The translations under genes were made by a program, and so were the position numbers. This document shows positions 2,427 to 46,404 of a stretch of 52,893 nt of DNA, one piece after another. Numbering within the stretch: position 1 is the stretch's first letter; each line of letters opens with the position of its first letter. The notes beneath the pieces are model-generated. The model saw only the letters and a list, made by a program, of their open reading frames with translations, did no database searches and was not told where the DNA came from. Origin of the DNA: an archaeon (GTDB taxonomy: Archaea > B1Sed10-29 > JAJSAI01); the NCBI GenBank assembly GCA_024274695.1, contig JAJSAI010000006.1, forward strand, positions 1 through 52,893, given 5' to 3'.

Positions 2427-2600
2427 GGGGCCATAGGGTAGCCTGGTGATCCTACCGGCTTTGGGAGGGGAGACACCTACGGTTTCTCCCTCTACCCTCT
2501 TCCCTTCGAGGGAAATCAGAAATACTAACTGTAGGGGGAGAGACCAAGGATTTCCCAAAAACAGCCGGTGACTCCGGTTCGAATCCGGGTGGCCCCACCA
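2427..2600 (+). tRNA. tRNA-Pro(TGG) with 97-nt intron at 37/38 (2466-2562)
   Basis: Acceptor GGGGCCA/TGGCCCC, anticodon stem CCGGC/GCCGG, T-loop GGTTCGAATCC, encoded CCA; BHB with one G.A mismatch. Confidence 0.93.
2466..2556. mobile_element. Two inverted family A copies forming the body of the tRNA-Pro(TGG) intron (MITE-like)
   Basis: GGTTTCTCCCTCTAC (2481-2495) pairs with GTAGGGGGAGAGACC (2531-2545); left copy about 33/43 identical to the reverse complement of 46243-46285. Confidence 0.6.
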
Positions 2601-2602
2601 CC

Positions 2603-3406
2603 CTACTCTTCAAGAAGGCGTCTTAAACGGTTGACGTACTCCTCGTAACTCCTTTTTGACAGGGACAGGGCGGAGACTTCTTCAACAGCGCTCCTAGCGT
2701 CCTCAGGAAGCCTCTTCAGGACACTGGCCGGAACGTTCCCCTCCGCCAGGGCCCTTGAAATGTTCTTGATACCAGCGTCCCTGAACGCCTGCCGGACCTC
2801 TTTGCGGGACAGCAGGCTCTTTGAGACCTCATCAATCCTTGAAGAAATCTTGCTCACGTTACGCTCGTACTCTGAAAGCCTCTTGAGCAGGATTTCCCTG
2901 CTGATCCCCAGACCACGCGCTGCTGAAGCCTGGCCAGGAGCCTCAGCCTCGCGGGCCTTCTTCACTTCCTTTCTCTTGATCTTCTTCTTCGCCCTCGCGA
3001 TCTCCGAGTCAATGATCCTCAAGGCCTCCTTACGCAGGGACTCCGCCAATTTCCTGCGCTCCCGCCTGAGGACCACTTCAGAATCCGAGTCCCACCTGCC
3101 CGCGCTCTTGAGGAACTTCACCACTTCCTCAACATTCCCCTCCTCCACGAGAAGAACAGGGTTCGGGTAAACCTTACGGTCCAGGAGAAGCTTCCTGAAC
3201 TCCTGCAAGTGCACGAGCCGCTGACGAGGGTCCTGGGGCAGGCTTTCCAGCACGCTGTCAACATACCTTTTCGCGGCGTGCGGCACCTTGGCATGAAAGT
3301 CCTCATGCTGGAACACCATGCTGTGCTCGTCCCCTTCCACGACAAGCCTCGCGTTCTTCTTCGCGAGCTCTCTTGCCCTCTTCCTTGAAACGGTCCTGGC
3401 CCTCAC
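2603..3406 (-). CDS. Hypothetical basic, coiled-coil-rich protein
   Basis: 267-aa ORF, GTG start preceded by GGTGGAGG SD; ends 2 nt from the tRNA-Pro CCA. Confidence 0.75.
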   Translation of the reverse strand: MRARTVSRKRARELAKKNARLVVEGDEHSMVFQHEDFHAKVPHAAKRYVDSVLESLPQDPRQRLVHLQEFRKLLLDRKVYPNPVLLVEEGNVEEVVKFLKSAGRWDSDSEVVLRRERRKLAESLRKEALRIIDSEIARAKKKIKRKEVKKAREAEAPGQASAARGLGISREILLKRLSEYERNVSKISSRIDEVSKSLLSRKEVRQAFRDAGIKNISRALAEGNVPASVLKRLPEDARSAVEEVSALSLSKRSYEEYVNRLRRLLEE

Positions 3407-3468
3407 GTTCCTCCACCTGAAAGAGTATAAGGAAGAAAGGGCTAATAAAAGGAGAGGTTGGAGGTCCT

Positions 3469-3689
3469 GTGACGAAAGGCAACTATGTTATCCTTGTCCG
3501 CCTGGACAAGAAATTGGAAATAACCGGAGGGCTTCTCAACGACCTTGTGCTAGAGCCGGGAGTGTACGCGTACGCTGGGTCAGCGATGAACGGGGTGGAA
3601 GCCAGGGTCAGGAGGCACTACAGGAAAGGCAAGAGCAGAAGGTGCACGCTGAGACTGCCGCGTGGCTGGAAAAGTACCTGAAGGGCTAA
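3469..3689 (+). pseudogene. Truncated GIY-YIG (DUF123/Uri family) endonuclease
   Basis: KGNYVILV...GVYAYAGSAMNGVEARVRRH matches the DUF123 N-terminus, but the ORF stops at 70 aa without the WHIDY motif or Cys-rich C-terminus. Confidence 0.75.
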
Positions 3690-3734
3690 CCGCTCCTTTT
3701 AAATCACAAAAAGCACAAAATCATTTGGTAGCGA

Positions 3735-3819
3735 GCGGGAGTTGCCTAGCCAGGTCATGGCGCAGGGCTTAGGACCCTGTGGGTTAGTCCCGTCGAGGGT
3801 TCAAATCCCTCCTCCCGCA
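3735..3819 (+). tRNA. tRNA-Leu(TAG)
   Basis: GCGGGAG/CTCCCGC acceptor, CAGGG-CTTAGGA-CCCTG anticodon arm, long variable arm. Confidence 0.96.
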
Positions 3820-3845
3820 TCAAGAAAAAGGAAGGGAGTGTGAGC

Positions 3846-4511
3846 ATGGCCAAAAAGGAGAGAACCGTCTTCAACCTGATAGAGGACGCGTTAAAGGCGC
3901 ACGGGGTCAAGCCAACCCCTGAAGCCGTGGACGCCGTCTGGAACAAGCTCTACGTAGAACTAAAGTACGAGATCAACCCGCGCGAGCTCCAGGAAGAAAT
4001 AAGAAAGGGAGTCACTGGAAAAGCCACACTCAAGGCATACGAGATCGTCTCTGACATGATAAAAGACAGGCAACTCAAGACAAGAGAGAGCCTGCCTGAG
4101 GGCGTTAAACGGTCCAGGATAAGCACTAAGGTTGACAAACTTTTCTACGATTACTACACCGCGAAAGGCATTGACAGGGTCATAGCGGACACGCTTGTGA
4201 TGATGGGCGTGAAACCCTCCAGGGAACAAATAGAAGATATCAGGGCAAGCGTCCAAGCCAGGCTGGCCGGCGAAGCGGATCCCAGGGTGATAAAAGAAGA
4301 GATAAGAACAGGAAAACCCGGCCCAGTGACGTACGCGGTCATGGACCTCGTCAAAGAAAGGAAGAACAGGCTGGAGCCCCTGTCGCCCGAGGAGCTTGAG
4401 CGCCTGAGAGAAATGGAGAAGGTGACAAAGGAGAAGATGAAAAAACCGGTGCTCACAAAACCAAAGTTCATAGAAGACCTGGAGAAAAGGCTGAGGAGAA
4501 GGAAGCGCTAA
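3846..4511 (+). CDS. Hypothetical protein with two internal ~63-aa repeats
   Basis: GVKP...PRxxxEEIRxG..G motif occurs twice; GGAGTG SD-like sequence upstream. Confidence 0.8.
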   Translation: MAKKERTVFNLIEDALKAHGVKPTPEAVDAVWNKLYVELKYEINPRELQEEIRKGVTGKATLKAYEIVSDMIKDRQLKTRESLPEGVKRSRISTKVDKLFYDYYTAKGIDRVIADTLVMMGVKPSREQIEDIRASVQARLAGEADPRVIKEEIRTGKPGPVTYAVMDLVKERKNRLEPLSPEELERLREMEKVTKEKMKKPVLTKPKFIEDLEKRLRRRKR

Positions 4512-4552
4512 CCTTTTTTAAACAACCTCCCAGAAAAAATAAGGGAGGGACT

Positions 4553-4626
4553 GCCTCGGTAGCTCAGCGTGGCGGAGCGCTTGCTTGGTAAGCAAGAGGT
4601 CCCGGGTTCAAATCCCGGCCGAGGCT
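4553..4626 (+). tRNA. tRNA-Thr(GGT)
   Basis: GCCTCGG/CCGAGGC acceptor; CTTGC-TTGGTAA-GCAAG. Confidence 0.96.
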
Positions 4627-4633
4627 CTCAAAC

Positions 4634-4716
4634 GCCGGGATTGCGGAGTGGTTAACGCGCCAGCCTTGAGAGCTGGTGGGCTTCGGCCCACGTGGGTTCG
4701 AATCCCACTCCCGGCG
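4634..4716 (+). tRNA. tRNA-Ser(TGA)
   Basis: GCCGGGA/TCCCGGC acceptor; CCAGC-CTTGAGA-GCTGG; long variable arm; G73. Confidence 0.96.
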
Positions 4717-4752
4717 TTCTATTAACATCCAAAAAGAAGGGAGTAAAAGAAC

Positions 4753-7727: not shown

Positions 7728-7852
7728 GCCTCGGTAGCACAGCGGTAGTGCGGCTGCCTTGTAAGAGCCCTTTGCGCTGAACGCGCAAAGCCCTCGGGGA
7801 AAGGCTCTAGGAAAGCAGCAGGCCGTGGGTTCGAATCCCACCCGAGGCTCCA
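7728..7852 (+). tRNA. tRNA-Thr(TGT) with 50-nt intron at 37/38 (7764-7813)
   Basis: GCCTCGG/CCGAGGC acceptor; GCTGC/GCAGC anticodon stem; strict BHB (CTTG/TAGG helix, GAGCC/GGCTC). Confidence 0.95.
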
Positions 7853-9169: not shown

Positions 9170-9348
9170 GGGGCCGTGGGGTAGCCTGGCAGCCTTCCAG
9201 CTTCGGGAGGGAAACCGCCAGCGGGTATACCCGAAACCTTTGGTTCGGGATAATCCAAAAGGCGAAAGCCTTTTGGTATTTTCCTCTACCTTCCCGCGAC
9301 CGGAGCCCGGAAGAGCTGGCGAGCCGAGTTCAAATCTCGGCGGCCCCA
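9170..9348 (+). tRNA. tRNA-Pro(CGG) with 106-nt intron at 37/38 (9208-9313)
   Basis: GGGGCCG/CGGCCCC acceptor; CCAGC/GCTGG; BHB helix TTCG/CGGA; exons nearly identical to tRNA-Pro(GGG) at 44683. Confidence 0.94.
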
Positions 9349-9617: not shown

Positions 9618-9658
9618 AGGGAAACCTCCAGCGGGTTTCCTCTACCTTCCAGCAACCG
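9618..9658 (+). repeat. Family A tRNA-associated hairpin element
   Basis: AGGGAAACCTCCAGCGGGTTTCCTCTACCTTCCAGCAACCG; 36/41 identical to the reverse complement of 41011-41051; matches both parts of the Pro(CGG) intron. Confidence 0.85.
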
Positions 9659-9660: not shown

Positions 9661-9720
9661 AATAAGGGGCCGCACCCCCCTTATCAACCCTCCTCACCAG
9701 AACGAGGGGCCGCACCCCTC
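9661..9720 (+). repeat. Two related hairpins ATAAGGGG-CCGCACC-CCCCTTAT and GAGGGG-CCGCA-CCCCTC
   Basis: Shared AGGGGCCGCACCCC core; related copy at 44759-44794. Confidence 0.7.
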
Positions 9721-10103: not shown

Positions 10104-10123
10104 AAAGGGAAACCGCTTGAGCT

Positions 10124-24505: not shown

Positions 24506-25936
24506 ATGGACGTGAGCATGTTCACGAAAATAAACGACTACGAGTGGATGATCCCAAAAAAAGGAGACATGAGAGTCCCAGGAATAGTGTTCGGGGACGA
24601 ACCAATAATCAGGGACCTGGACGAGAAAGTATGGGAACAGGTATCAAACGTGGCAACACTCCCGGGAATACAGCTCGCGAGCATTGCCATGCCTGACGCC
24701 CACTGGGGCTACGGTTTCCCTATAGGAGGAGTGGCCGCATTCGATCCCAAAGAAGGAGGCATCATCAGCGCTGGAGGCGTCGGATACGACATCAGCTGCG
24801 GGGTCAGGACCCTGAAAACGAACATGAAAAAAGAAGAAGTGCTCCCAAAGCTTTCGGAGCTGATGGAAGAACTCTTCAGAACCATCCCTGCAGGCCTGGG
24901 GTCAGAGGGAGAAATAACCCTCACAAAAGACCAGGAGGACGAAATGCTCGCCAAGGGAGCGAAATGGGCTGTGGAACAAGGTTACGGGACAGAAGAAGAC
25001 CTGGAGTACACCGAGATGCACGGGACAGCGCCTGACGCTGACCCGAGTAAGGTAAGCGATCTCGCGAAAAAAAGAGAAAAGAAGCAAGCGGGAACCCTGG
25101 GCTCAGGAAACCACTACCTTGAAGTCCAGTGGGTGGAAGAGGTTTACGATCCTGAAATAGCCAGGATATACGGCCTGGAAAAGGACCAGATCCTAATAAC
25201 ATTCCACTGCGGGTCAAGAGGACTCGGGCACCAGGTCGCCTCAGACTACATGAAAGTGCTGGACCAGGCAGCGCCGAAGTACGGGATAAAACTTCCAGAC
25301 AGACAGCTAGCGTGCGCGCCAATAGATTCCCAAGAGGGCAGGGACTACTGGCAGGCCATGAACGCAGCAATAAACAACGCGCTCGCGAACAGGCAGATAA
25401 TATCCCACCTCGCGCGGAAAGCGTTCAAGAGAGTGTTCCCGGACGCCGAACTGCCCCAGTTGTACGACACGAGCCACAACACGTGCAGGAGAGAAGAGCA
25501 CGTAGTGGACGGGGTCAAGAAGATAGTGTACGTGCACAGAAAAGGAGCCACGAGTGCCCTGGGGCCCGGCCGGCCGGAAATCCCGAAAGCATACATGAAC
25601 GCGGGCCAGCCTGTGCTGATAGGAGGAACCATGGGCACGTACTCCTACATCCTCGCGGGAACAAGAGAAGGGATGGAAAAAGCGTTCGGAAGCGCGTGCC
25701 ACGGGGCGGGCAGGAGGATGAGCAGGGCGAAAGCAAAGAAAACGTGGAAAGGAGAACAAGTCATCAGGGACCTCGCAGAAAGGGGGATAATAGTGAAAGC
25801 CCACTCCTTCAGAGGAGCTGCAGAAGAAGCCCCCGGAGCGTACAAGGACGTCAGACAGGTCGTGGACGCGGTGCACAACGCGGGCCTCGCCAAGAAGGTC
25901 GTAAGAGTAAGGCCGCTCGGGGTAGTGAAAGGGTGA
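24506..25936 (+). CDS. rtcB: RNA-splicing ligase RtcB
   Basis: MPDAHWGYGFPIGGV, GVGYDISCG, GSGNHYLE, HRKGAT, HGAGR, EEAPGAYK. Confidence 0.98.
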   Translation: MDVSMFTKINDYEWMIPKKGDMRVPGIVFGDEPIIRDLDEKVWEQVSNVATLPGIQLASIAMPDAHWGYGFPIGGVAAFDPKEGGIISAGGVGYDISCGVRTLKTNMKKEEVLPKLSELMEELFRTIPAGLGSEGEITLTKDQEDEMLAKGAKWAVEQGYGTEEDLEYTEMHGTAPDADPSKVSDLAKKREKKQAGTLGSGNHYLEVQWVEEVYDPEIARIYGLEKDQILITFHCGSRGLGHQVASDYMKVLDQAAPKYGIKLPDRQLACAPIDSQEGRDYWQAMNAAINNALANRQIISHLARKAFKRVFPDAELPQLYDTSHNTCRREEHVVDGVKKIVYVHRKGATSALGPGRPEIPKAYMNAGQPVLIGGTMGTYSYILAGTREGMEKAFGSACHGAGRRMSRAKAKKTWKGEQVIRDLAERGIIVKAHSFRGAAEEAPGAYKDVRQVVDAVHNAGLAKKVVRVRPLGVVKG

Positions 25937-37195: not shown

Positions 37196-38637
37196 TGGAC
37201 ATAAAAGTGTTCGAAAAGCTCGGGTCCTTTCTCCCAGAAATACAGCCCCCGAGCGGAAAACCTCCCCTGAAAGCAAGGGTAAAATGGACGTTAGCGGCGC
37301 TTATCCTTTTCTTTCTGCTAGGAATAGTAACACCAGTAGGCCTTGCTCCTGCAGCGCAGGCACAGCACCTTGAAAGCCTGCAGATGATACTCGCTAGCAA
37401 GATAGGAACAATAGCAACACTGGGTATCGGACCCATAGTGATGGGAAGCATAATCCTACAGCTGCTGGTGGGCGCCGGGCTCATAAAAATGGACAGGAGC
37501 AGCCCTAAGGACAGGAGAGCGTTCCAAACAGCTCAGAAGATTTTAGCCATATTCTTCTGCTTCTTTGAAGCAGGAATTTACACCATGTCAGGGTACATAC
37601 CCGCGGCGCCCGGAATGCAGGCTCTTGTGCTACTGCAGATCGCGTTCGGCGGTATAATCATAATGTACCTTGACGAGCTGATAAACAAGTACGGTATAGG
37701 ATCTGGAGTCGGAATATTCATCGCAGCAGGAGTCTCACAATCAATAGTCTGGAAAGCATTCTCCTTCTTCCAGACAGGGGGGACATTCATAGGGCTGGTG
37801 CCCCAGCTCCTAGCAGGGCTCGGCGCAGGAGAAATTTCAGAGGCTGCTTTGACACCCCTGCTGTTCACGCTACTCGTGTTCCTGATAGTAGTATACTTTG
37901 AGTCCATGAAAATAGAGATACCACTCACCTTCGGGCAGATAAGGGGAATGGGTGCAAGGTATCCTCTGAAGTTCTTGTACGTGAGCAACATTCCAGTGAT
38001 CTTCGCGATAGCCCTGTTCGCCAACGTCCAGCTGGTGGGCGCCGCGTTTGACAGCATGGGAATGCCCATCCTAGGACACTTTGAGGGAGGGAGAGCCACT
38101 CAAGAACCAATAATGTGCCTGGGAGGAGAGATGATAACAAAGGGGAGCACTGTGGTGTGCCAGGGAGGAATAGGCGTGCCTGGAATAGCGTACTTCCTTT
38201 CAACACCCTACAGGTACCTTGCAACAAGCCAGGAAATAAGCATTACTCTAGCAAGCCCCCTCAGGATAATGCAGATAGTATTCTTCACGATCGCACTAAT
38301 GCTAATGTGCGTGGTCTTCGGCAAAATATGGGTAGAACTCTCTGGAATGAGCGCTAGGGATGTTGCAAGACAACTGCAGCAGGTCGGCCTGCACGTGCCA
38401 GGATTCAGGAGAGACCCGAGAGTCATAGAAAGAGTGCTAGAAAGGTACATCCCCACCGTCACCGTGCTAGGATCACTGGCAGTAGGGTTCCTGGCGGTGC
38501 TCGCGGACCTTACCGGCGCGCTGGGAACCGGAACAGGGATACTCCTGACAGTAGGAATACTCTACAGGCTGTACGAGGAGCTGGCGTCCGAGCAAGCCAT
38601 GGAAATGATGCCCGCCCTGAAAAAGTTCATGAGCTGA
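37195..38637 (+). CDS. secY: Protein translocase SecY
   Basis: LGIGPIV, GIGSGVGIFI, YVSNIPVI, PGFRRD, GTGILL. Confidence 0.98.
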   Translation: MDIKVFEKLGSFLPEIQPPSGKPPLKARVKWTLAALILFFLLGIVTPVGLAPAAQAQHLESLQMILASKIGTIATLGIGPIVMGSIILQLLVGAGLIKMDRSSPKDRRAFQTAQKILAIFFCFFEAGIYTMSGYIPAAPGMQALVLLQIAFGGIIIMYLDELINKYGIGSGVGIFIAAGVSQSIVWKAFSFFQTGGTFIGLVPQLLAGLGAGEISEAALTPLLFTLLVFLIVVYFESMKIEIPLTFGQIRGMGARYPLKFLYVSNIPVIFAIALFANVQLVGAAFDSMGMPILGHFEGGRATQEPIMCLGGEMITKGSTVVCQGGIGVPGIAYFLSTPYRYLATSQEISITLASPLRIMQIVFFTIALMLMCVVFGKIWVELSGMSARDVARQLQQVGLHVPGFRRDPRVIERVLERYIPTVTVLGSLAVGFLAVLADLTGALGTGTGILLTVGILYRLYEELASEQAMEMMPALKKFMS

Positions 38638-38674
38638 AGGCTTTTTATAAAAGATTCCTGGAATAAAAAGAAAG

Positions 38675-39139
38675 GTGAATAGAATGTCCGCCGCTCTGGA
38701 AGTTGCCCTGATCGCGTTCCTGGTCTCACTCGGCAGCATAGCCCTGAGCAAGAAAATGGTTGACCAGGACAGGGTAGAGGAAATAAAGGCAAGAATAAAA
38801 GAGTACAACAAGAAGTACCGGAAGGCCCTAAAAGAGAACGATAAGCAGGCTCTCAAGAAACTAGAGGCAGAGGGCAAGGAGGTCACGAGGATGAGCATGG
38901 AACTGATGAAGTACTCCTTCAAGCCCACGATGTTCACGATAATACCCATCCTCATAGTCATAAGCGCGATAAGAGCAAACTACGGGAACCAAGTTGTCGC
39001 GTCACTTCCCCTGATAGGAGGGGTTGACGCGTTCTGGTGGTATGTTATAGTGGCAATGGCCACTAGCATAACCCTAGAAATAGTGTACAGCGCTTACAGG
39101 AGGAGAAAAAAGAATGGTGGAACCAGGAAAAAGGACTAA
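38675..39139 (+). CDS. DUF106 / EMC3-TMCO1 (Oxa1 superfamily) membrane protein
   Basis: TM-coiled coil-TM-TM layout, FKPTMFT and WWY motifs, conserved position after secY. Confidence 0.88.
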   Translation: MNRMSAALEVALIAFLVSLGSIALSKKMVDQDRVEEIKARIKEYNKKYRKALKENDKQALKKLEAEGKEVTRMSMELMKYSFKPTMFTIIPILIVISAIRANYGNQVVASLPLIGGVDAFWWYVIVAMATSITLEIVYSAYRRRKKNGGTRKKD

Positions 39140-39389
39140 GAAGATGAGGAAGATATTCTACAGGACACCAGGAGGAGAAACAAGAACAAGGTACAAGAGA
39201 AGGAAGAGCAAGAAGAAGAGCTGCGAGATCTGCGGGAGGCAGATACAAGGAAAAAGACCCGGCAGAGCGTACTCTCAGAAACTGTGCCCGTCCTGCCTTG
39301 AAGAGTTCCTAAAGGCCAAAGCAAGAGCAGAAGAAGGACAACCCATCCCCCTAAAGTTCAGGCACCTGCTCAAGAGTGAAGCCGAATGA
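39114..39389 (+). CDS. rpl34e: 50S ribosomal protein L34e
   Basis: RTPGG, CEICG, RAYSQKLCPSC. Confidence 0.93.
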   Translation: MVEPGKRTKKMRKIFYRTPGGETRTRYKRRKSKKKSCEICGRQIQGKRPGRAYSQKLCPSCLEEFLKAKARAEEGQPIPLKFRHLLKSEAE

Positions 39390-39898
39390 TAATAGCCATA
39401 AGCGGCACAACAGGCTCGGGAAAAGACACTCTGGCAAAGGAACTCGCGGACAGGCTCGGACTACGCCTCGTGAAAGGAAGCCTGAAGGAGTACGCGAAAA
39501 GAGAAGGAGAAGACGTGCTGGAATTCGTAGAAAGAGAGAATATAATAGAATACGACAAAACGCTTGACCAGAAACTCAAAAAAGAAGCGTCCAAGGGAGA
39601 CTGCGTGATAGCAAGCAGGCTCTCAGCAGCCATGATCGCCCCAAACGCTGACCTAAGAATATGGCTTGACGCACCGGAAGAGGAGAGAGCGAGAAGAATA
39701 GAAAAAAGGGATGGAATAAGAAACGGGCTTGAGTACGTTCGCCTGAGGGACAAAGAAAGCAGGGAAAGATTCATCAAAACATACGGGATAGATTACGCTG
39801 ACCTGAAGTATTATGACATGTACCTGAACACAGCAAAATGGAGGCCAAGACAGCTCGCTGACATTGTAATAAAAGCGCTGGAGGGGATGAAAAAATGA
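39386..39898 (+). CDS. cmk: Cytidylate kinase (archaeal type)
   Basis: ISGTTGSGKDT P-loop, SRLS, RARRI; position between L34e and L14e. Confidence 0.9.
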   Translation: MIIAISGTTGSGKDTLAKELADRLGLRLVKGSLKEYAKREGEDVLEFVERENIIEYDKTLDQKLKKEASKGDCVIASRLSAAMIAPNADLRIWLDAPEEERARRIEKRDGIRNGLEYVRLRDKESRERFIKTYGIDYADLKYYDMYLNTAKWRPRQLADIVIKALEGMKK

Positions 39899-40059
39899 TA
39901 AAAGAAGGAACAGAGTGCATCATCCTTAAGGGAAGTGATGCTGGAAAAAAGGTAGTAGTCAAAAAGGTGCTTGATAACACTTTCGTGGAAATAGAAGGAG
40001 AAAGAGTAAAGAGAAGGAGAATAAACGTAAGGCACATAGAACCCTTGCTCAAGGGCTGA
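39895..40059 (+). CDS. rpl14e: 50S ribosomal protein L14e, short (54 aa); not in the ORF track
   Basis: Manual translation MIKEGTECIILKGSDAGKKVVVKKVLDNTFVEIEGERVKRRRINVRHIEPLLKG*. Confidence 0.92.
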   Translation: MIKEGTECIILKGSDAGKKVVVKKVLDNTFVEIEGERVKRRRINVRHIEPLLKG

Positions 40060-40066
40060 GCAGAAG

Positions 40067-40882
40067 ATGAATGCTCTTGTTCTCGTGGACAAGCCCCCTG
40101 GCATAACCTGCGCCAGAATAGACCTCCTGGTCAGAGAATGGTCAGGGGAAAAAGTAGCGCACGCGGGAACCCTTGACCCGCAGGTCACAGGGGTCCTCCC
40201 ACTCCTGATAGGCAAGAAGGCGATCAAGCTCCTTGAGTACCTGCAGAAGAGCGAGAAGGAGTACGTCTGCCTCATGAGGGTCCAAAACGCGCAGGAAGAA
40301 AGGGTAAAGGAAGTGCTAAAGGAGTTCGTCGGAAAAGTTTACCAGACTCCCCCCGAAACCTCTGCGGTCGCGAAGAAGACGAGGGTCAGGAAGATATACA
40401 GGATAGACATTCTGGACATAGACGGAGATTACTTTCTCATAAAAGTGGCCTGCCAGCACGGGACATACATCCGCGTTCTCGTCAGGGACGTGGGAAGAGT
40501 GCTCGGGACAAAAACAGAAATGATAGAACTAAGGAGGATCAGGAGCAACGGGTTCTCAGAAGAAGAATGCGTTCCACTCGTCAGGCTAAAGGACGCGCTG
40601 AGCCTAGAGAACCCTCCAGAAGGAGTCCTCCTTCCTCTGGAAGAGGCAGTAAGGAGTCTTCCGAAGATAAAGGTTAAGAAAACTGCTGAAAAGAATATCA
40701 TAAAGGGAGCCCCGGTCATGGCCCCCGGGGTTCTTGAGAAAAATGGACACATACAAAAAGGAAAGCCTGTCGCAATACTTTCAGAGGACGGAAAGCTGAT
40801 CGGCGTTGGGATAGCGGAGTATGATAAAAACGAGTTTCCAGAGAGAGGGATTGTGGTAAGGACTCGGAAGGTCCTTGCGTAA
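40067..40882 (+). CDS. cbf5: Pseudouridine synthase Cbf5 (TruB family, PUA domain)
   Basis: DKPPG, HAGTLDP, KEYVC, GTYIR, APGV. Confidence 0.96.
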   Translation: MNALVLVDKPPGITCARIDLLVREWSGEKVAHAGTLDPQVTGVLPLLIGKKAIKLLEYLQKSEKEYVCLMRVQNAQEERVKEVLKEFVGKVYQTPPETSAVAKKTRVRKIYRIDILDIDGDYFLIKVACQHGTYIRVLVRDVGRVLGTKTEMIELRRIRSNGFSEEECVPLVRLKDALSLENPPEGVLLPLEEAVRSLPKIKVKKTAEKNIIKGAPVMAPGVLEKNGHIQKGKPVAILSEDGKLIGVGIAEYDKNEFPERGIVVRTRKVLA

Positions 40883-40919
40883 ACATTAAAATAACCTCTT
40901 CGGAAAAAGTATTAACAAT

Positions 40920-41002
40920 GCCGGGATTGCGGAGTGGTTAACGCGCCAGCCTGGAGAGCTGGTGGGCTTCGGCCCACGTGGGTTCGAATCCCACTCCCGG
41001 CG
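40920..41002 (+). tRNA. tRNA-Ser(GGA)
   Basis: Identical to tRNA-Ser(TGA) at 4634 except position 34. Confidence 0.96.
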
Positions 41003-41003
41003 T

Positions 41004-41051
41004 AGCCGGCCGGTGGCAGGAGGGTAGAGGGAACCCGCTGGAGGTTCCCCT
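41004..41051 (-). mobile_element. Family A element, inverted, between duplicated tRNA-Ser 3' ends
   Basis: Direct repeat TCCC(A/G)CTCCCGGCGT at 40989-41003 and 41052-41066; reverse complement 36/41 identical to 9618-9658. Confidence 0.75.
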
Positions 41052-41090
41052 TCCCGCTCCCGGCGTCATTAACAGCGCCCGCGGAGGACA

Positions 41091-41219
41091 GAAACCTTTT
41101 TAAACACCAGCATGAGAAAAAATAATACTCCTTTGGAGAGTACTTGGGAAAAACTGGCGAGGCCTTTCGGCCGGTGACCTACAGATAACCCCGCAAATTG
41201 TTTGAGGATCGGTGAATGT
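41091..41219 (+). promoter_or_regulatory. BRE/TATA plus ~93-nt leader of the rps13 operon
   Basis: GAAACC-TTTTTAAA; GGCC-TTTC-GGCC hairpin; GGTGA SD; motifs shared with the rpl3 leader. Confidence 0.55.
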
Positions 41220-41678
41220 ATGGCAGAGTTCAAAGGACGTCTTAGGATAGCCGGGAAAGACGTTGACGGAAACCTCCCCATACCCAAAGCCCTGAAACTG
41301 ATAAAGGGCATAGGAACGAACCTTGCTGACAGCATAGCCAAGGTGTTCTCTGCATAAGCAGGCGTCGCTTTTTCAGAGAAAGCAGGGAACCTTACTGAAG
41401 AACAGATAGCACTAATAGAAAAGATAATAGCCAACCCGACAGCCTACGGTATTCCAGCGTACATGGTGAACAGAAGAAAAGATCCCGAGACAGGGGAGGA
41501 TGTACACCTCACAGGCTCTGACCTTGACTTCGCAATAAAACAGGACAAAGAAAAGCACATGGCCCTGAAGAGCTGGAAGGGAGTAAGGTACGCTGCAGGA
41601 CTCCCTGTAAGGGGCCAGAGGACCAGAACCATGGGAAGAAAGGGTAAGACCGTTGGAGTGCACAGGAAGAAGAAGTGA
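41220..41678 (+). CDS. rps13: 30S ribosomal protein S13 with in-frame TAA at codon 46 (41355-41357)
   Basis: MAEFKGRLRIAGKDVDGN...IKGIG...FSA*AGVAF...NRRKD...GLPVRGQRTR, all in one frame. Confidence 0.93.
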
Positions 41679-41683
41679 TACTC

Positions 41684-42238
41684 ATGGGAGATCCTAGGAG
41701 ACTGAGGAAAAAGTATGACACCCCAAACCACCCTTGGGAGAAGAAAAGGATAGAAGAAGAAAAAAAGCTCGTTATAGAGTACGGTCTTAAGAACAAGAGA
41801 GAGCTCTGGCGCGCCCAGACATTGCTCAGGAAGTACAGACACCTCGCAAGAAGCCTTGTAGGACTTCCTCAAGAAGAGAGGGCAGACAAGGAAAAGGTTA
41901 TCCTCGGCAAAATGATTGACCTCGGGCTGATAAAAGAGGGAGGAAGCCTTGATGATATCCTGTCCCTGAAGGTGGAGGATATTCTTGAAAGAAGGCTTCA
42001 GACCCTCGTGTGGAAGAAGGGAATGGCTCTGACGCCAAAACAGGCGAGGCAGTTCATCGTGCACGGGCACATACAAGTCAACGGAAGGCGCACTACCGCG
42101 CCAGGGATGATCGTGGACAAGAAAACAGAGCCCACAATAGACTGGGTCAAGGAACCCATACAACTGGCTCCGCCGAAACAGCAGGCGATGGTGGAAGCGC
42201 AGGATAAAGCAATAGGAGAAGGTGAGTCGAATGCCTGA
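41684..42238 (+). CDS. rps4: 30S ribosomal protein S4
   Basis: [31 protein letters not shown]. Confidence 0.97.
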
Positions 42239-42617
42239 ACACTGGGGCGTAGCACACATTTACTCTAGCCAGAACAACACGATAATCACCCTGACAGACC
42301 TCACAGGGGCTGAAACAATAGCAAAATGCTCTGGCGGCATGGTGGTGGACGCGCAGAGAAAAGAAGGAAGCCCCTACGCCGCAATGCTCGCGGCCCAAAA
42401 GGTTGCCGAGATAGCAAAAGCAAAGGGAATAACAGGAGTGCACATAAAAGTGAGAGCCCCAGGAGGCCACTTCAGCAAGATACCTGGGCCAGGAGCACAA
42501 GCGTGCATAAGAGCCCTCGCGAGAAGCGGTCTCAGGATAGGAAGGATAGAGGACGTTACCCCAATACCACACGACACCACCAGAAGACCTGGTGGAAAGA
42601 GAGGAAGAAGACCATGA
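42231..42617 (+). CDS. rps11: 30S ribosomal protein S11
   Basis: [27 protein letters not shown]. Confidence 0.97.
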
Positions 42618-43213
42618 AGCTCACCATAAAAAAAGAGGACGAGAACAGGATAAAATTCGAGCTTACTGACGCGAACTACGCGTACGCGAACGCCCTGAGG
42701 AGAACACTCATGAGAGAAGTTCCCGTTATGGCAGTAAGAGAAATAGACCTGTACGAGAACACGAGCAGCATATTCCCGGAGTACATCGCCCACAGGATAG
42801 GAATGATCCCCCTCAAAACAGACCTGAAAAGGTACGTGCTTCCCGAAGAATGCTGCGGAGGCAACTGCTCAAAATGCTCCACCATACTAACCCTTGACGT
42901 GGAAGGGCCTAGAACAGTGTACGCGGAGGACCTCAAACCAACAGACCCTAACATCTCCCCGGTGTACGGGAGGATCCCAATAATAAAGCTGGCCGAGGGC
43001 CAGAGGCTAAGGCTGGAAGCAAAAGCAGTGCTCGGAAAGGCAAAGGACCACGCAAGATGGCAAGCGTGTCACGTGACATACAACACGAGCAACGGGAAAG
43101 ACTTCAAGTTCGAGCTGGAATCCTACGGTAACCTGCCCGCCAAGAAGATTCTTGAAAAAGGGATAAAAATACTTGAGGCCCAGGTCAAGGAGATAAAACA
43201 GAAGGTCAAATGA
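42614..43213 (+). CDS. rpoD: RNA polymerase subunit D (Rpo3), short form
   Basis: [34 protein letters not shown]; 199 aa. Confidence 0.96.
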
Positions 43214-43229
43214 AGGAGAGGACGCAGCC

Positions 43230-43595
43230 ATGAAGAGAACAGAAAAGAAGGCAAGAGAAAAAACAAACCCGTTCATACTAGAGACTGTGATAGCCCTCAA
43301 CAAGACGAAGGCAAGAGTATGGAGGGACGTTGCCGAGAGGATAGTGGCGCCCACGAGGCAGATCAAGGGAGTTCCCCTGTGGAGGATAAACAAGTACACC
43401 AACGAAGGGGACACGATAGTGGTGCCCGGGAAAGTTCTTGGCAACGGGAATATTGACCACAAGGTGACAGTGGCAGCATTGTCCTACTCGCAGGCCGCAC
43501 TTGAAAAGCTCAAGGCGGCCAAGTGCAAAACGCTCACAATAAGAGAACTGTCCAAAAAGAATCCCAAGGGCAGCGGGGTCAAGATCATAGGGTGA
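43230..43595 (+). CDS. rpl18e: 50S ribosomal protein L18e
   Basis: KTNP, VVPGKVLG, NPKGS. Confidence 0.96.
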   Translation: MKRTEKKAREKTNPFILETVIALNKTKARVWRDVAERIVAPTRQIKGVPLWRINKYTNEGDTIVVPGKVLGNGNIDHKVTVAALSYSQAALEKLKAAKCKTLTIRELSKKNPKGSGVKIIG

Positions 43596-43602
43596 AAGGA
43601 GA

Positions 43603-44022
43603 ATGAAAGTCTACGACGGGGAAAACAGTGTTCTCGGAAGACTCGCCTCCAGAGTAGCACAGGACCTGCTGGAGGGAGAGGAAGTCAGGATAATAAACGC
43701 TGAAAAGATAGTCATCACAGGAAACGAAAAGGACATAAAAGCTAAGTACGCGCACAGGTTCCAGCAGCTCACAAACGCAGCAAACCCTCGGAAAGGACCC
43801 AACAGGAGCAGGAGACCAGACTACTTCGTGAAAAGGGTCATAAGAGGAATGGTCCCAAGGAAAACAGCAAGAGGAAGAGAGGCCCTCTCCCGTCTAAAAG
43901 TTTACATCGCAGATCCTGAGCAGCTAAAAGAAAAGGCAGAAAAGTACGCTGAGTGCAGGAGCCGGAAGAAAATGACCGTGCTCGAGCTGTGCACGTGGCT
44001 CGGGTGGAGGGGTAGAGCATGA
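43603..44022 (+). CDS. rpl13: 50S ribosomal protein L13
   Basis: LGRLAS, NAEK, RVIRGMVP. Confidence 0.96.
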   Translation: MKVYDGENSVLGRLASRVAQDLLEGEEVRIINAEKIVITGNEKDIKAKYAHRFQQLTNAANPRKGPNRSRRPDYFVKRVIRGMVPRKTARGREALSRLKVYIADPEQLKEKAEKYAECRSRKKMTVLELCTWLGWRGRA

Positions 44023-44456
44023 CCGCGAAGAAAAAGAAAGAGGAAAAGATAGTCCTTGCAAGAGGAAAGAAGAAGAGCGCGGTAGCAAGAGCGAGAATAC
44101 GCGCGGGGCCCAAGAGCCTGAAGATAAACGGCAGGCCCGTGGAGACACTTAACCCTAAGATAGTCCAGGAGATAATAACCGAGCCCATAAAGCTTGCTGA
44201 GAACGTGCTCGGCGAGGGGTTCGACAACAACCTTGACATTGATGTTAACGTTTACGGCGGAGGGATAATGGGCCAAGCGTTCGCCACAAGAACCGCGATC
44301 GGGAAGGCACTGATCGCATGGACAGAATCAGAAGAGCTCAAAAAACTCTTCTCAGAGTATGACACCACCCTCGTGAAAGAGGACGTGAGGAGAAAAGAGC
44401 CTAAGAAGTACCTCAGGAAGGGAGCGAGAGCAAGGCCCACAACGTCGTACAGGTGA
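44019..44456 (+). CDS. rps9: 30S ribosomal protein S9
   Basis: [32 protein letters not shown]. Confidence 0.97.
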
Positions 44457-44463
44457 GAAAAAC

Positions 44464-44658
44464 ATGATGATCCCAGTAAGGTGCTTCTCCTGCGGCAAGC
44501 CCATAGGACACCTGTGGGAAGAGTACAAGAACAGAATAAAAGAAGAGGATCCAGAGAAAGTGCTGGACTCGCTCGGACTAGAAAGGTACTGCTGCAGGAG
44601 AATGCTTATATCCCACGTTGACCTCATAGACGATATAATCGCGTACGACCAGAAATGA
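44464..44658 (+). CDS. rpoN: RNA polymerase subunit N (Rpo10)
   Basis: [16 protein letters not shown]. Confidence 0.98.
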
Positions 44659-44682
44659 AAAAAAAGCCCCCTGCTACTATCC

Positions 44683-44758
44683 GGGGCCGTGGGGTAGCCT
44701 GGCAGCCTTTCACCTTGGGGTGGTGGCGACCCGAGTTCAAATCTCGGCGGCCCCACCA
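44683..44758 (+). tRNA. tRNA-Pro(GGG), intronless
   Basis: GGGGCCG/CGGCCCC; TCACC-TTGGGGT-GGTGG; CCA. Confidence 0.96.
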
Positions 44759-44794
44759 AATAAGGGCGCCTTCCCCGCCCTTATGAACCCTTCC
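44759..44794 (+). repeat. Hairpin element directly after the tRNA-Pro CCA
   Basis: ATAAGGGCG/CGCCCTTAT stem plus GAACCCTTCC tail; related to 9661-9693. Confidence 0.65.
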
Positions 44795-44823
44795 GTGCCG
44801 AATAAAAGTGAATTTCCCCCGCC

Positions 44824-44900
44824 GCGCGGTTAGTCTAGTCTGGTTAGGACATTGGCCTTCCAAGCCAATGACCCGGGTTCGAATCCCGGACCGCGCACCA
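44824..44900 (+). tRNA. tRNA-Gly(TCC)
   Basis: GCGCGGT/ACCGCGC; TTGGC-CTTCCAA-GCCAA; CCA. Confidence 0.96.
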
Positions 44901-44953
44901 CCACCCAAGAACTACAAACAGTTTTAAAGCACTCCTCTTTCTCTTATACTCTG

Positions 44954-46051
44954 ATGAAAAAGTTCAGAGAACTCAGCCTGCAGGAAAGAACAGAACTGCT
45001 AGGGATAGGGAAAAAGCTCTTAGAACGTTCCCTGGCCCCTGAAGACCTTGAAAGGATAGGCGAGAACCCTGCAGGCGTGCACGAGCTCCCCATCAGGATC
45101 CTGGACAGGCTGCCCGTGAACGGCAGGGAGTACACCGTGCCCCTGGTGACAGAAGAGGCTTCTGTTGTGGCCGGCGCGTGCTACGGGGCCAAGCTCTGCA
45201 GGCTTGCCGGAGGAATCCAAGCTAATGTCACAGAATCGCTGGCAAGAGCACAGGTCCTGCTGACGAGACCCTTAAAAAAGTTTGACAAGCGCAGGCTCCT
45301 GGAAAAAGCCAATGAAGGGCACAAGCATTCCAGGGCCGTTGACATTATAATAAAAAATGCTGGCAGTAAGAGGGTTCTGGAAATAGTTTTTGACCCGGGA
45401 GATGCCATGGGGGCTGCTGTGGCGAGCAGTATGGCCGAGGCAGTATCCGAGGAAATAGGCCAGGGTCTGGGGAGAGTGGTTTGCAACAAGTACGGGAGGA
45501 GAGTGCGCGCGAGCGTCAGAATCCCCGTGCAGTTGCTCGAACGAAAGCATGATGGAAGAACGATTCCTGGAGAGGAGGTCGCGCGCAGGATACAAAAGCT
45601 GAGCGAGTGGGCAGAGTCAGACCCTGACAGGGCAGTCACCCACAACAAAGGAATCATGAACGGGATCACGGCAGTCGCTCTCGCCACAGGACAAGACACC
45701 AGGGCAATAGAAGCAGCATGCCACGCGCACGCCGCCGCTAACGGAGATTATTCTCCCCTGAGCAGGTGGAGGGTTTCAGAGAAAGTGCTAGAGGGAACGC
45801 TTGAAGCAGTACTCCCGTGCGGGATTGTGGGCGGAGAACTGAAAACCTATCCGAAAACAAGGATTGCTTTGGAGATAATGGGCGTGCGCAGCGCGAACGA
45901 GCTTGCGCAGGTCATGGCAGGGGTTGGACTGGCACAGAACCTTGCTGCTTTGAGCATGCTCGCGACCATAGGCGTAACCAAAGGCCACGGAGGCCACAGG
46001 ATCCGGCTGACACCCTCAGAGGAGAAGGAAACCAATAAAAGCAGGTGGTAA
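44954..46051 (+). CDS. mvaA: HMG-CoA reductase, class II type
   Basis: TEEASVVA, GDAMGA, RAVTHNKGIMNG, ATGQDTRAIEA, GLAQNLAAL; ATG at 44954 after TTTTAAA. Confidence 0.92.
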   Translation: MKKFRELSLQERTELLGIGKKLLERSLAPEDLERIGENPAGVHELPIRILDRLPVNGREYTVPLVTEEASVVAGACYGAKLCRLAGGIQANVTESLARAQVLLTRPLKKFDKRRLLEKANEGHKHSRAVDIIIKNAGSKRVLEIVFDPGDAMGAAVASSMAEAVSEEIGQGLGRVVCNKYGRRVRASVRIPVQLLERKHDGRTIPGEEVARRIQKLSEWAESDPDRAVTHNKGIMNGITAVALATGQDTRAIEAACHAHAAANGDYSPLSRWRVSEKVLEGTLEAVLPCGIVGGELKTYPKTRIALEIMGVRSANELAQVMAGVGLAQNLAALSMLATIGVTKGHGGHRIRLTPSEEKETNKSRW

Positions 46052-46067
46052 CAGAATAAAGGATAGC

Positions 46068-46235
46068 GCGGGAGTCGCCTAGCCAGGTATGGCGCTGGAC
46101 TCAAGGAACCCTTTCCGCTGGGCGCGCGAAAGCGTTCACGGAAAAGTTGGGGACATCCAGTGGCTTAGTGTGTTTCGCCCTCCGAAGGACGGAGCGCGAG
46201 AACTGCCGCCGAGGGTTCAAATCCCTCCTCCCGCA
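46068..46235 (+). tRNA. tRNA-Leu(CAA) with 49-nt 37/38 intron (46106-46154) and ~35-nt variable-arm insert (about 46169-46203)
   Basis: Removing both inserts gives a body colinear with tRNA-Leu(TAG); CTGGA/TCCAG anticodon stem. Confidence 0.9.
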
Positions 46236-46285
46236 TCAAGAAAAAGGAAGGGGGTAACAGGGGGAAACCAATGGGTGTCCCCCGT
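46236..46285 (-). mobile_element. Family A element, inverted, between duplicated tRNA-Leu 3' ends
   Basis: Perfect 20-bp direct repeat TTCAAATCCCTCCTCCCGCA at 46216-46235 and 46286-46305; reverse complement resembles the start of the Pro(TGG) intron. Confidence 0.75.
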
Positions 46286-46404
46286 TTCAAATCCCTCCTC
46301 CCGCACCAGCATCCTGCAAGCCTGCCGAAAGAGTATTAAAGGTATTCAAAGGAAAATCCAAACAGACGACCTCAAAAAAAAGCGTGACAGAGGAGGGTAC
46401 AGGC

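What the first reader, a model, noticed from the sequence alone, without database searches (positions are those of the whole stretch)
2466..46305. Family A: a ~40-50-nt tRNA-targeted hairpin element found both as tRNA intron and as tRNA 3'-end insertion
Seen: one motif, roughly AGGG(R)2-3(CA)CC-loop-GGTTYC(Y)n-TACCY(T/C)C, recurs only at tRNA genes in this window. It starts at the first base of the Pro(TGG) intron (2466) and the Pro(CGG) intron (9208). It follows the CCA of tRNA-Ala (9618-9658) and appears as an 11-nt fragment after tRNA-Gln (10106-10116). It lies inverted behind tRNA-Ser(GGA) (41004-41051) and tRNA-Leu(CAA) (46236-46285). 9618-9658 matches rc(41011-41051) at 36/41 with a compensatory A-T to G-C stem change. 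The 2466 copy matches the rc(46285) copy at about 33/43, also with a compensatory pair. Established: archaeal tRNA introns are removed by EndA at BHB motifs and ligated by RtcB, and their origin is debated. Inference: a non-autonomous miniature element that targets tRNA genes and is tolerated either by being spliced out or by regenerating the tRNA 3' end. This would be a direct link between a mobile repeat and intron birth.
Basis: partly seen in the sequence, partly recalled or inferred. Interest (0 to 1): 0.9.

Follow-up and report, generated by a model that had tools for sequence, protein, structure and literature searches.

The report
Mobile hairpin repeat seeding tRNA introns
A small hairpin-forming repeat sits in and beside transfer-RNA genes of this tiny archaeon, is missing from the same sites in its sister species, and recurs almost unchanged in an unrelated archaeal phylum, so it looks like a mobile element that can become a tRNA intron.

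Summary
A 41-nt module (10-bp hairpin plus pyrimidine tail; a ~96-nt long form carries a nested two-hairpin insert) occurs at 11 tRNA loci of this 825-kb genome and nowhere else. It starts two canonical BHB introns (Pro-TGG, Pro-CGG). It follows tRNA-Ala directly. It lies inverted after tRNA-Ser and tRNA-Leu, between direct repeats of the tRNA 3' end. The same-genus genome G001 has clean empty sites at 8 of 10 comparable loci and carries the module in two other tRNAs. The module recurs at 95-100% identity in 10 of 31 genomes of the same DPANN-type phylum and in 15 of 61 sampled genomes of a DHVE2-type order. There it lies in tRNA introns, 1-2 nt after tRNA 3' ends, inside RNase P RNA and in intergenic repeat mosaics. 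Covariation supports the hairpin. No transposase, reverse transcriptase or neighbouring integrase was found. Recombination between tRNA paralogues visibly moved copies. Best reading: a non-autonomous, horizontally spreading palindromic element that becomes an intron where its arms complete a BHB. "tRNA-targeted" is too narrow, and the insertion mechanism stays unknown. No description was found in the papers searched.

The parts
2466..2562 (+). 97-nt intron of tRNA-Pro(TGG) at position 37/38; a whole palindromic element
   Evidence: ARAGORN intron call. G001 orthologue is intronless, with exons 100%/95% identical. BHB A7/C3/B6 at these boundaries. Folds as one long hairpin, z -3.4.
2466..2506 (+). 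S1 module (direct arm): 10-bp hairpin plus pyrimidine tail, starting at the first intron base
   Evidence: R1 71.4 bits, E 2e-16. 41/41 identical to copies inside DHVE2-type RNase P RNA.
2531..2556 (-). Partial inverted arm that pairs with the direct arm
   Evidence: Coordinates; pairing in the MFE fold.
9208..9313 (+). 106-nt intron of tRNA-Pro(CGG) at 37/38, built on a long-form module
   Evidence: ARAGORN. G001 orthologue intronless. BHB A5/C4/B2. Homologous Pro(CGG) introns in G027, G030 and L039.
9208..9226 (+). 5' half of the S2 module
   Evidence: 18/19 identical to 9618-9636.
9227..9279 (+). Nested two-hairpin insert that defines the long form
   Evidence: Matches the insert of the 96-nt long form (nhmmer E 3e-4; BLAST). 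Stems differ from other copies by paired changes (read by eye).
9280..9303 (+). 3' half of the stem and tail of the S2 module
   Evidence: 15/15 identical to 9636-9650; coordinates.
9618..9657 (+). S2 module directly after the encoded CCA of tRNA-Ala(TGC)
   Evidence: Absent after the G001 orthologue. Hairpin -11.8 kcal/mol, not better than shuffles by itself (z -1.0).
10104..10116 (+). 13-nt fragment resembling the S2 start, right after tRNA-Gln CCA
   Evidence: 11/11 match, E 1.3, not significant alone.
40994..41003 (+). First copy of the 10-nt direct repeat (3' end of tRNA-Ser(GGA))
41003..41056 (-). S2 module, inverted, filling the space between the repeats
   Evidence: R1 E 0.002. 36/41 to the Ala copy. 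G001 has no insert and no repeat here.
41057..41066 (+). Second copy of the 10-nt repeat
46216..46235 (+). First 20-nt copy of the tRNA-Leu(CAA) 3' end (T-loop to discriminator), no CCA
46210..46252 (+). 43 nt identical to the tRNA-Leu(TAG) T-arm, acceptor strand and 17 nt of its native flank (window 3794-3836)
   Evidence: Exact match. The Leu(TAG) flank leads into the next gene's start and partly resembles the G001 flank.
46244..46284 (-). S module, inverted, abutting the second repeat copy
   Evidence: R1 39.7 bits, E 7e-8.
46286..46308 (+). Second 20-nt copy of the Leu 3' end plus CCA
   Evidence: G001 Leu(CAA) has neither insert nor repeat.
3794..3836 (+). Probable donor stretch: tRNA-Leu(TAG) 3' part and flank

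Best explanation
Family A is a family of small structured repeat modules: a covarying 10-bp hairpin with a conserved loop-proximal part, then a pyrimidine-rich tail. An optional nested two-hairpin insert gives the long form. Two modules in inverted orientation make a palindromic element of about 80-100 nt. These are non-autonomous mobile elements that spread horizontally between a DPANN-type phylum and a DHVE2-type order of another phylum. In roomy genomes they also fill intergenic mosaics. In this compact genome they survive only where an insertion into a stable-RNA gene does no harm. There are three such cases. (1) In the anticodon loop, the outer ends of the two arms pair next to the splice sites and complete a bulge-helix-bulge, so EndA and RtcB remove the element: a new intron. 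This step is shown formally, not by RNA data. (2) Just beyond the tRNA 3' end, normal end processing removes it (inferred). (3) At the 3' end with a second copy of the last 10-20 nt of the tRNA, the first copy most likely serves as the working end and the second is an orphan (inferred). Arrival at a new site needs an insertion activity that I could not identify. Later spread between tRNA genes, and probably between genomes, uses homologous recombination with the conserved tRNA sequence as homology arms. This is shown for Leu(CAA)/Leu(TAG), Lys(TTT)/Arg(TCT) and Arg(CCG).
For: Real family: R1 E-values from 2e-16 to 7e-8. On 67 distinct copies, 8 of 10 stem pairs change on both sides and 93% of cells pair, against 48-75% when partners are slid (the alignment was fitted to the model). 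Mobile: 8 of 10 G000 loci are empty in G001, with exact boundaries. G001 has the module in Thr(TGT) and Thr(CGT) introns where G000 has another intron or none. Most Pro-tRNA best hits in the order are contiguous, which fits a gain in G000. Horizontal: the exact 23-mer occurs in 12 loci of the species-representative genome collection (185,579 species by the tool's description). All are DPANN-type or DHVE2/Thermoplasmata records. R1 finds it in 10 of 31 genomes of the phylum and 15 of 61 of the other order. The G000 Pro(TGG) copy is 41/41 identical to a copy in RNase P RNA of that order, while G000 and G001 coding DNA is only 68-74% identical. Splicing: BHB at both Pro introns; EndA and RtcB are present. 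Palindrome: many abutting +/- pairs. The RNase P insert replaces a 4-nt loop of the closest insert-free relative, and its arms are swapped between genomes. Recombination: 43-nt identity between Leu(CAA) and Leu(TAG). Lys(TTT) and Arg(TCT) share an identical flank of more than 130 nt. The distal repeat at Arg(CCG) is non-cognate. Non-autonomous: no ORF lies inside. DHVE2 neighbours are housekeeping genes.
Against: No mobilising enzyme was found. G000 has one tyrosine recombinase, far from any copy. Its one Cas1 sits beside a CRISPR array. It has no RT and no Y1 transposase, and only a sub-threshold TnpB-like zinc ribbon. Across the phylum, Y1 is in 1 of 31 genomes (a genome without the module), OrfB_IS605 in 8 of 31 (all without the module) and RT in 0 of 31. 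Y1 is in 0 of 5 DHVE2-type genomes. No target-site duplication shows at intron, trailer or RNase P sites. Orthologous copies are better conserved than a decaying parasite should be: Arg(TCG) 42/42 by eye and Arg(GCG) about 36/41 by eye, while the flanks diverged. The orphan second repeat at Arg(GCG) is 19/20 conserved between species. Copies begin 0-3 nt from RNA processing sites far too regularly for tolerance alone to explain. No RNA data could be obtained. Genomes are MAGs; G000 is 91% complete.
Confidence: 0.6

Rival explanations
1. A host-beneficial RNA signal, not a parasite. The hairpin plus tail would bind a processing or stability factor of stable-RNA precursors, be recruited repeatedly, and be kept by selection.
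For: Strong conservation of hairpin and tail across phyla, with covariation. Orthologous copies are conserved while flanks diverged. The start sits exactly at 37/38 splice sites in 6 tRNAs of 4 genomes. It lies 1-2 nt after tRNA 3' ends in at least 8 tRNAs, and 3 nt before one tRNA 5' end.
Against: 8 of 10 sites are empty in the sister species. Copies occur in both orientations. They lie inside RNase P RNA and in intergenic arrays without RNA genes. No Rfam family matches. The tail shows no complementarity to rRNA beyond chance. This reading still cannot explain near-identity between phyla without transfer.
Confidence: 0.2
2. Scars of integrated plasmids or viruses. The repeated tRNA 3' ends would be attL/attR of tyrosine-recombinase elements whose cargo was lost, and the module an arm-type binding site.
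For: Direct repeats of tRNA 3' ends. The distal copy carries CCA and the proximal one does not. The same T-loop variant (G at position 58) appears in 4 distal copies at different tRNAs, as if carried by the element.
Against: No integrase lies near any copy. G000 has a single Xer-like recombinase on another contig. There were 0 matches in viral contigs. DHVE2 loci show housekeeping genes and no distal repeat within 4-7 kb. It does not explain the intron and RNase P copies. The repeats are cognate to different tRNAs.
Confidence: 0.08
3. RNA-level mobility. Excised or partly processed RNAs carrying the module would be ligated or reverse-spliced into other RNAs and copied back into DNA. The G at T-loop position 58 of distal repeats would be a misreading of m1A58 (recalled: m1A58 makes reverse transcriptases misincorporate).
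For: Module ends coincide with RNA processing sites. Distal repeats start at T-loop position 54 and include CCA. G58 appears in 4 of the 6 distal copies that span position 58.
Against: RVT_1 was found in 0 of 31 genomes of the phylum. CCA is genome-encoded in about 28 of 45 G000 tRNAs anyway. The strand logic needs an intron-3'-exon intermediate at 53/54, for which no BHB was found.
Confidence: 0.07
4. The 3'-end copies are unusual introns: the second repeat is the true 3' exon and the first repeat plus module is spliced out.
For: The second copy carries CCA and a T-run (Lys, Arg GCG). The inverted module abuts it as it abuts 3' splice sites elsewhere.
Against: No consistent BHB at any offset in the 4 loci tested. 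The only hits come from the palindromic acceptor stem. In G001 the first Arg(GCG) copy is followed by T9. Using the second copy would put G58 in the T-loop. EndA is a 172-aa single-domain form. Such forms are reported to need a strict BHB (recalled).
Confidence: 0.04

Closest known systems
Transposed tRNA introns of Thermoproteales (Fujishima et al. 2010; seen only as described in passages of PMC4090602, otherwise recalled)
   Same: [quoted passage not shown] The mechanism is stated to be unknown.
   Different: Here the same sequence also lies outside introns: in tRNA trailers, in 3'-end duplications, in RNase P RNA and in intergenic arrays. It is shared between two phyla, and empty sites in a sister species are shown.
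Bacterial REP/BIME elements with RAYT transposases (PMC3733652 passages; otherwise recalled)
   Same: Short hairpin repeats in both orientations, forming intergenic mosaics (G063). They are conserved in structure and lack their own genes.
   Different: No Y1/RAYT gene in 5 of 5 DHVE2-type genomes, and in only 1 of 31 DPANN-type genomes, one without the module. The elements sit inside stable-RNA genes and serve as introns. They are archaeal.
MITEs and eukaryotic transposon-derived introns ('introners'; PMC11282704, search listing only)
   Same: A small inverted-repeat element with presence/absence polymorphism that becomes an intron once the host can splice it.
   Different: No target-site duplication and no autonomous partner were found. 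Splicing is by the protein endonuclease at a BHB that the element's own arms help to form.
Mobile GC clusters of yeast mitochondria (PMC4478555, search listing only; otherwise recalled)
   Same: Palindromes of 30-50 nt that move without a known enzyme and land in or beside RNA genes.
   Different: Different domain of life and different sequence. Not known to be spliced.
Casposon target at tRNA-Pro of Aciduliprofundum boonei (PMC5137440, abstract and passages)
   Same: An integrase that reads the T-loop region and duplicates a segment overlapping the tRNA 3' end. In G050 the 15-bp duplicated segment includes the first 7 nt of a long-form module.
   Different: The module is the native flank there, not the casposon end. 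G000 has no casposon, and its Cas1 is next to a CRISPR array.

Membership tests
Archaeal BHB (EndA/RtcB) tRNA intron | Interrupts the mature tRNA sequence | tested here: met
   Pro(TGG) and Pro(CGG): the intronless G001 orthologues define exact boundaries.
Archaeal BHB (EndA/RtcB) tRNA intron | Bulge-helix-bulge at the two splice sites | tested here: met
   A7/C3/B6 and A5/C4/B2 at the expected positions. Not met for the 3'-end repeat loci (4 tested) or the RNase P insert.
Archaeal BHB (EndA/RtcB) tRNA intron | Splicing endonuclease and ligase encoded | tested here: met
   PF01974 at G000:C23:7541-7801; RtcB at window 24638-25933.
Archaeal BHB (EndA/RtcB) tRNA intron | Removal seen in RNA | not testable with these tools
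   No sequencing run was listed.
MITE | Terminal inverted repeats, small size, several copies, insertion polymorphism | tested here: met
   Inverted arms; 11 loci in G000; 8 of 10 empty in G001.
MITE | Target-site duplication of fixed length | tested here: not met
   None at intron, trailer or RNase P sites. The repeats at 3' ends vary from 10 to 20 nt, and one derives from a paralogue.
MITE | Autonomous relative with a transposase and the same ends | tested here: not met
   Not found in the genomes searched. DDE families were not searched.
REP/BIME-RAYT | Y1 (RAYT) transposase in genomes carrying the repeats | tested here: not met
   0 of 5 DHVE2-type genomes. 1 of 31 DPANN-type genomes, one without the module.
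IS200/IS605-derived palindromic element | TnpA or TnpB present | tested here: not met
   OrfB_IS605 occurs in 8 of 31 genomes, none with the module.
Integrative-element att scar | Direct repeats overlapping the tRNA 3' end | tested here: met
   7 loci in G000 and G001.
Integrative-element att scar | Integrase or cargo between or beside the repeats | tested here: not met
   50-220 nt between the repeats with no ORF. The only recombinase is on contig C4.
Casposon | Cas1 with PolB inside the inverted repeats; 14-15-bp duplication | tested here: not met
   The G000 Cas1 adjoins a CRISPR array.
Any Rfam RNA family | Match to a curated covariance model | tested here: not met
   Only tRNA at gathering score. 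Nothing credible at E up to 5 on two element-rich loci.

The most novel reading that the evidence does not exclude
These modules are the ends of a transposase-less mobile element that homes to the RNA-processing sites of stable-RNA genes: splice sites, tRNA 5' and 3' ends, and loops of RNase P RNA. It is exchanged between DPANN-type cells and DHVE2-type archaea, possibly symbiont and host. It would be an actual vehicle by which archaeal BHB introns are born. The distal tRNA-end copies with G at T-loop position 58 would be retro-copied, modification-scarred tRNA ends, which implies an RNA intermediate and an unrecognised copying activity.
Probability: 0.12. Interest if true: 0.95.

Novelty: new variant of a known kind. 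Interest (0 to 1): 0.8.

Why it matters
How archaeal tRNA introns arrive is an open question. A 2014 review calls the mechanism of intron transposition unknown (PMC4090602, passages). A 2026 preprint on Asgard tRNAs found no general route and says arrival remains open (abstract only). Here one sequence family is caught in several states at once. It is a freshly gained canonical intron with an empty site in a sister species. It is a T-loop intron in a relative. It is an extragenic trailer, an insert in RNase P RNA and an intergenic repeat. That makes the transposon-to-intron route testable in archaea. It also points to tRNA genes as landing pads for recombination-driven transfer. And it offers a sequence marker of DNA exchange between ultrasmall archaea and a Thermoplasmatota lineage from similar habitats.

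Tried and rejected
Chance or low-complexity similarity: rejected by the E-values and covariation.

Known RNA family: none.

C/D-box or other guide RNA: no boxes seen by eye. Complementarity of the module to 23S and partial 16S rRNA of G027 is within the shuffle range.

CRISPR relation: the 30-nt repeat is unrelated by eye. Spacers were not searched against the element.

Casposon or Cas1 partner in G000: rejected.

IS200/IS605, RAYT and RT partners: not found. DDE, serine-recombinase and other transposase families were not searched.

Border of a large integrated element in DHVE2-type loci: rejected for the two loci checked.

BHB splicing of the 3'-end repeat loci: no support. That script stopped with an error after four loci, so Arg(CCG), which has no exact repeat, and G001 Arg(GCG) were not scored. 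In one search the 'Leu DR' scan anchored on the wrong Leu gene and is void. The 'Ser DR' hits there would not give a tRNA.

RNA or read evidence: no sequencing run was listed for window 38001-48000.

Structure, complex and protein-homology tools were not needed.

Print search: five searches found no description of this repeat family. This covers only the held library. Fujishima 2010 itself was not read. Supplements were not opened and may list intron groups or repeats that bear on novelty.

Papers seen: PMC4090602, PMC12558985, PMC5137440 and PMC3733652 as passages; the 2026 Asgard preprint as abstract and outline; all others as search listings or recalled.

Full report
WHAT IS THERE. The window is contig C32 of an 825-kb, 32-contig archaeal genome, 91% complete. 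It is rich in tRNA genes. ARAGORN with introns finds 45 in the genome and 22 in the window. Its unit, called S here, is 41 nt. It has a 10-bp hairpin with a nearly invariant loop-proximal part and one conserved mismatch, followed by a pyrimidine-rich tail (alignment). The Ala, Ser and Pro(CGG) copies form a sub-type, S2. A long form of about 96 nt, L, carries a 53-nt two-hairpin insert in the 3' side of the stem.

SIGNIFICANCE. The covariance model R1 finds 8 matches at E<0.01 in G000, all in or within 250 nt of tRNA genes. That territory is 3.3% of the genome. Only the Gln fragment is not significant by itself.

THE FULL SET IN THIS GENOME. There are eleven significant loci.
- Introns starting with the module: Pro(TGG), Pro(CGG) and Arg(TCG) on C9.
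- Module or long form directly after the 3' end: Ala. Also the tRNA that ARAGORN calls Phe(gaa) with a D-arm intron, which by its anticodon loop reads as Lys(TTT).
- Module inverted after a first copy of the tRNA 3' end and abutting a second copy: Ser, Leu(CAA), Lys(CTT), Arg(GCG), Arg(TCT) and Arg(CCG).

Four contigs (C19, C22, C26, C27) end inside identical L copies. The second repeat on C26 matches the Arg(TCT) gene at the end of C27. The C19 end is orthologous to the flank of G001 Lys(TTT). So C27 joins C26 and C22 joins C19 (inference).

The Pro(TGG) intron contains a direct and a partial inverted arm and folds as one long hairpin.

PRESENCE AND ABSENCE. G001 is the only other genome of the genus held. 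It is syntenic, and coding DNA is 68-74% identical. At orthologous sites it has no intron in Pro(TGG) or Pro(CGG). It has no module after Ala, Arg(TCT), Arg(CCG) or Lys(TTT). It has no insert and no repeat at Ser or Leu(CAA). That makes 8 of 10 comparable loci empty, with exact boundaries. Arg(GCG) and Arg(TCG) are shared. No G001 orthologue of Lys(CTT) was retrieved. Conversely, G001 has the module at the start of introns in Thr(TGT) and Thr(CGT). In G000, Thr(TGT) has an unrelated intron and Thr(CGT) has none. Across the order, most best Pro-tRNA matches are contiguous, which fits a gain in G000, though isoacceptors were not verified.

BEYOND THE GENUS. The invariant 23-mer occurs in 12 loci of the species-representative genome collection. 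Their record titles name DHVE2/Aciduliprofundum, Thermoplasmata, Micrarchaeota, Iainarchaeum, Nanobdellati and an unclassified archaeon. It occurs in none of the viral contigs and in 3 metagenome contigs. R1 finds it in 10 of 31 genomes of G000's phylum, patchily by family. It finds it in 15 of 61 sampled genomes of the order of G041, with up to 19 copies.

Contexts in those genomes:
- The first base of Pro(CGG) introns in two further genomes.
- Inverted in the 3' part of an Asp intron, and inverted inside a Trp intron.
- The start of T-loop introns in 5 tRNAs of G020.
- 3 nt upstream of a tRNA-Glu.
- 1-2 nt after the discriminator region of at least 8 tRNAs in DHVE2-type genomes and one metagenome contig.
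- Inside RNase P RNA.
- In an RNA-like stretch beyond 23S rRNA in two genomes.

In the complete genome G050, 9 of 11 copies lie within 300 nt of a tRNA or inside RNase P RNA. In G063 only 5 of 16 regions hold such a gene. The rest are intergenic mosaics of S2, S3 and long-form modules in both orientations. So the family is not tRNA-specific.

RNase P RNA. Genomes with the module have RNase P RNA of 356-377 nt. Most genomes without it have 290-301 nt (three have 316-325 nt). The closest insert-free relative is 83% identical. It has a 4-nt loop where the others hold an ~85-nt palindrome. No duplication is visible there. The two arms are swapped between G041 and G050. No BHB flanks that insert.

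STRUCTURE. On 80 copies (67 distinct), 8 of 10 stem pairs show changes on both sides. 93% of cells pair, against 48-75% with slid partners. Zero of 500 shuffles reach the observed score. The alignment was fitted to the model, which favours it. The two inner hairpins of the long form also differ between copies by paired changes (read; not counted formally).

HOW THE INSERTS ARE TOLERATED. For both Pro introns, a BHB with the outer helix (the anticodon stem), a 4-bp central helix and an inner helix made by the module's first bases sits exactly at the boundaries that G001 defines. EndA (a 172-aa frame) and RtcB (inside the window) are encoded. Copies after the 3' end lie outside the mature tRNA.

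For the repeat-flanked copies I found no consistent BHB. In G001 the first Arg(GCG) copy is followed by nine T. Four of the six distal copies that span position 58 carry G there, which is A in the working copies. About 28 of 45 tRNAs encode CCA. The first copies never do, and the second mostly do. I infer that the first copy is the working end and the second an orphan of the original gene. RNA data are needed.

HOW THEY MOVE. No gene lies inside any copy, and no partner enzyme was found (details under evidence against). Recombination between tRNA genes is directly visible in three places. First, 43 nt at Leu(CAA) (the T-arm, the acceptor strand and 17 nt beyond) are identical to Leu(TAG) and its native flank 42 kb away, and they end in a 9-nt overlap with the module. 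Second, Lys(TTT) and Arg(TCT) share an acceptor strand and an identical flank of more than 130 nt. Third, the distal repeat at Arg(CCG) is of the Arg(TCT)/Lys type.

A cassette flanked by two copies of a conserved tRNA end, or an intron flanked by two conserved exons, can be copied into any gene with those sequences by repair of a break. This needs no enzyme of its own and would also work on foreign DNA. It does not explain first arrivals at unrelated sites, nor the regular 0-3-nt distance from processing sites. Those remain unexplained.

COMPARISON AND NOVELTY. The closest known phenomenon is intron transposition in Thermoproteales. The closest in form are bacterial REP/BIME repeats, MITE-derived introns and mitochondrial GC clusters. 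Defining features of MITE, REP-RAYT, IS200/IS605 derivatives, att scars and casposons were tested and not met. Five literature searches found no description of this family.

VERDICT. A new variant of a known kind, of high interest. It links an extragenic mobile repeat to fresh BHB-intron gain and is shared between two archaeal phyla.

Noticed in passing
G000:C26:46995-47144 (- strand), outside the window: Apparent circularly permuted tRNA-Ser(CGA). The T-arm and 3' acceptor strand come first, then a 5-nt linker, then the 5' acceptor strand, D-arm and anticodon stem-loop. The outer flanks are complementary over 11 nt. ARAGORN does not call it. Permuted archaeal tRNAs are reported from Thermofilum (PMC3218864, listing and recall).
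   Followed up: partly
window 44761-44783; variant at 9663-9683; also G000:C19, C24 and G001 loci: A second conserved tRNA-trailer hairpin of 23 nt. It is identical after Pro(GGG), Ala(GGC) and Lys(CTT) in G000 and after Ala genes in G001, with a further conserved ~17 nt at some loci.
   Followed up: no
window 7728-7852; G000:C27:2442-2567; G001 L107: Another intron family. The introns of Thr(TGT) and Arg(TCT) share both ends and a central hairpin. The Arg(TCT) intron is conserved in G001.
   Followed up: no
window about 46176-46208: tRNA-Leu(CAA) has an extra ~33-nt insert in the variable arm that G001 lacks. Its canonical intron also differs in length.
   Followed up: no
G001 L013 (C8:1-500) and L015 (C1:1-1000): G001 has its own shared intron families: a ~40-nt T-loop intron in His and Glu, and a D-loop intron in several tRNAs. 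Its tRNA-Ala has a D-loop intron that G000 lacks.
   Followed up: no
window 40919-41003 vs G001:C1:32727-32809: The orthologous Ser tRNA has anticodon GGA in G000 and TGA in G001.
   Followed up: no
G050:C1:380309-380323 and 389400-389414: A 15-nt segment is duplicated 9.09 kb apart. It consists of 5 nt of a tRNA-Pro end, 3 nt, and the first 7 nt of a long-form module. This fits the published description of the A. boonei casposon target (15-bp duplication overlapping tRNA-Pro by 5 bp; PMC5137440). The repeat module would then form part of that target.
   Followed up: partly
G000:C4:1-1100 with Cas1 at C4:1752-2549; G000:C6:8963-9391: CRISPR arrays with a 30-nt repeat. Both lie at contig ends and share spacers, so C6 and C4 probably join.
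   Followed up: no
G001:C1:15001-17772: RtcB matches in two pieces within a 988-aa open frame, against 481 aa in G000. This is possibly an intein.
   Followed up: no
L044 (G027) 16S 3' end vs the module: The module's start and loop region resemble the 3' strand of 16S helix 45, which is also followed by a pyrimidine-rich end. The predicted folds differ. Unexplained and possibly chance.
   Followed up: no
L044 about 3398-3480 (G027) and L073 (G019): A direct-plus-inverted module pair is inserted at the same place in a helix-rich stretch downstream of 23S rRNA in two genomes. By eye it looks like an SRP-RNA-like gene, but Rfam does not call it.
   Followed up: no
G009 loci L070, L078, L083: Modules alternate with another ~52-nt repeat in tandem arrays next to tRNA genes. 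One module is flanked by two copies of that repeat.
   Followed up: no
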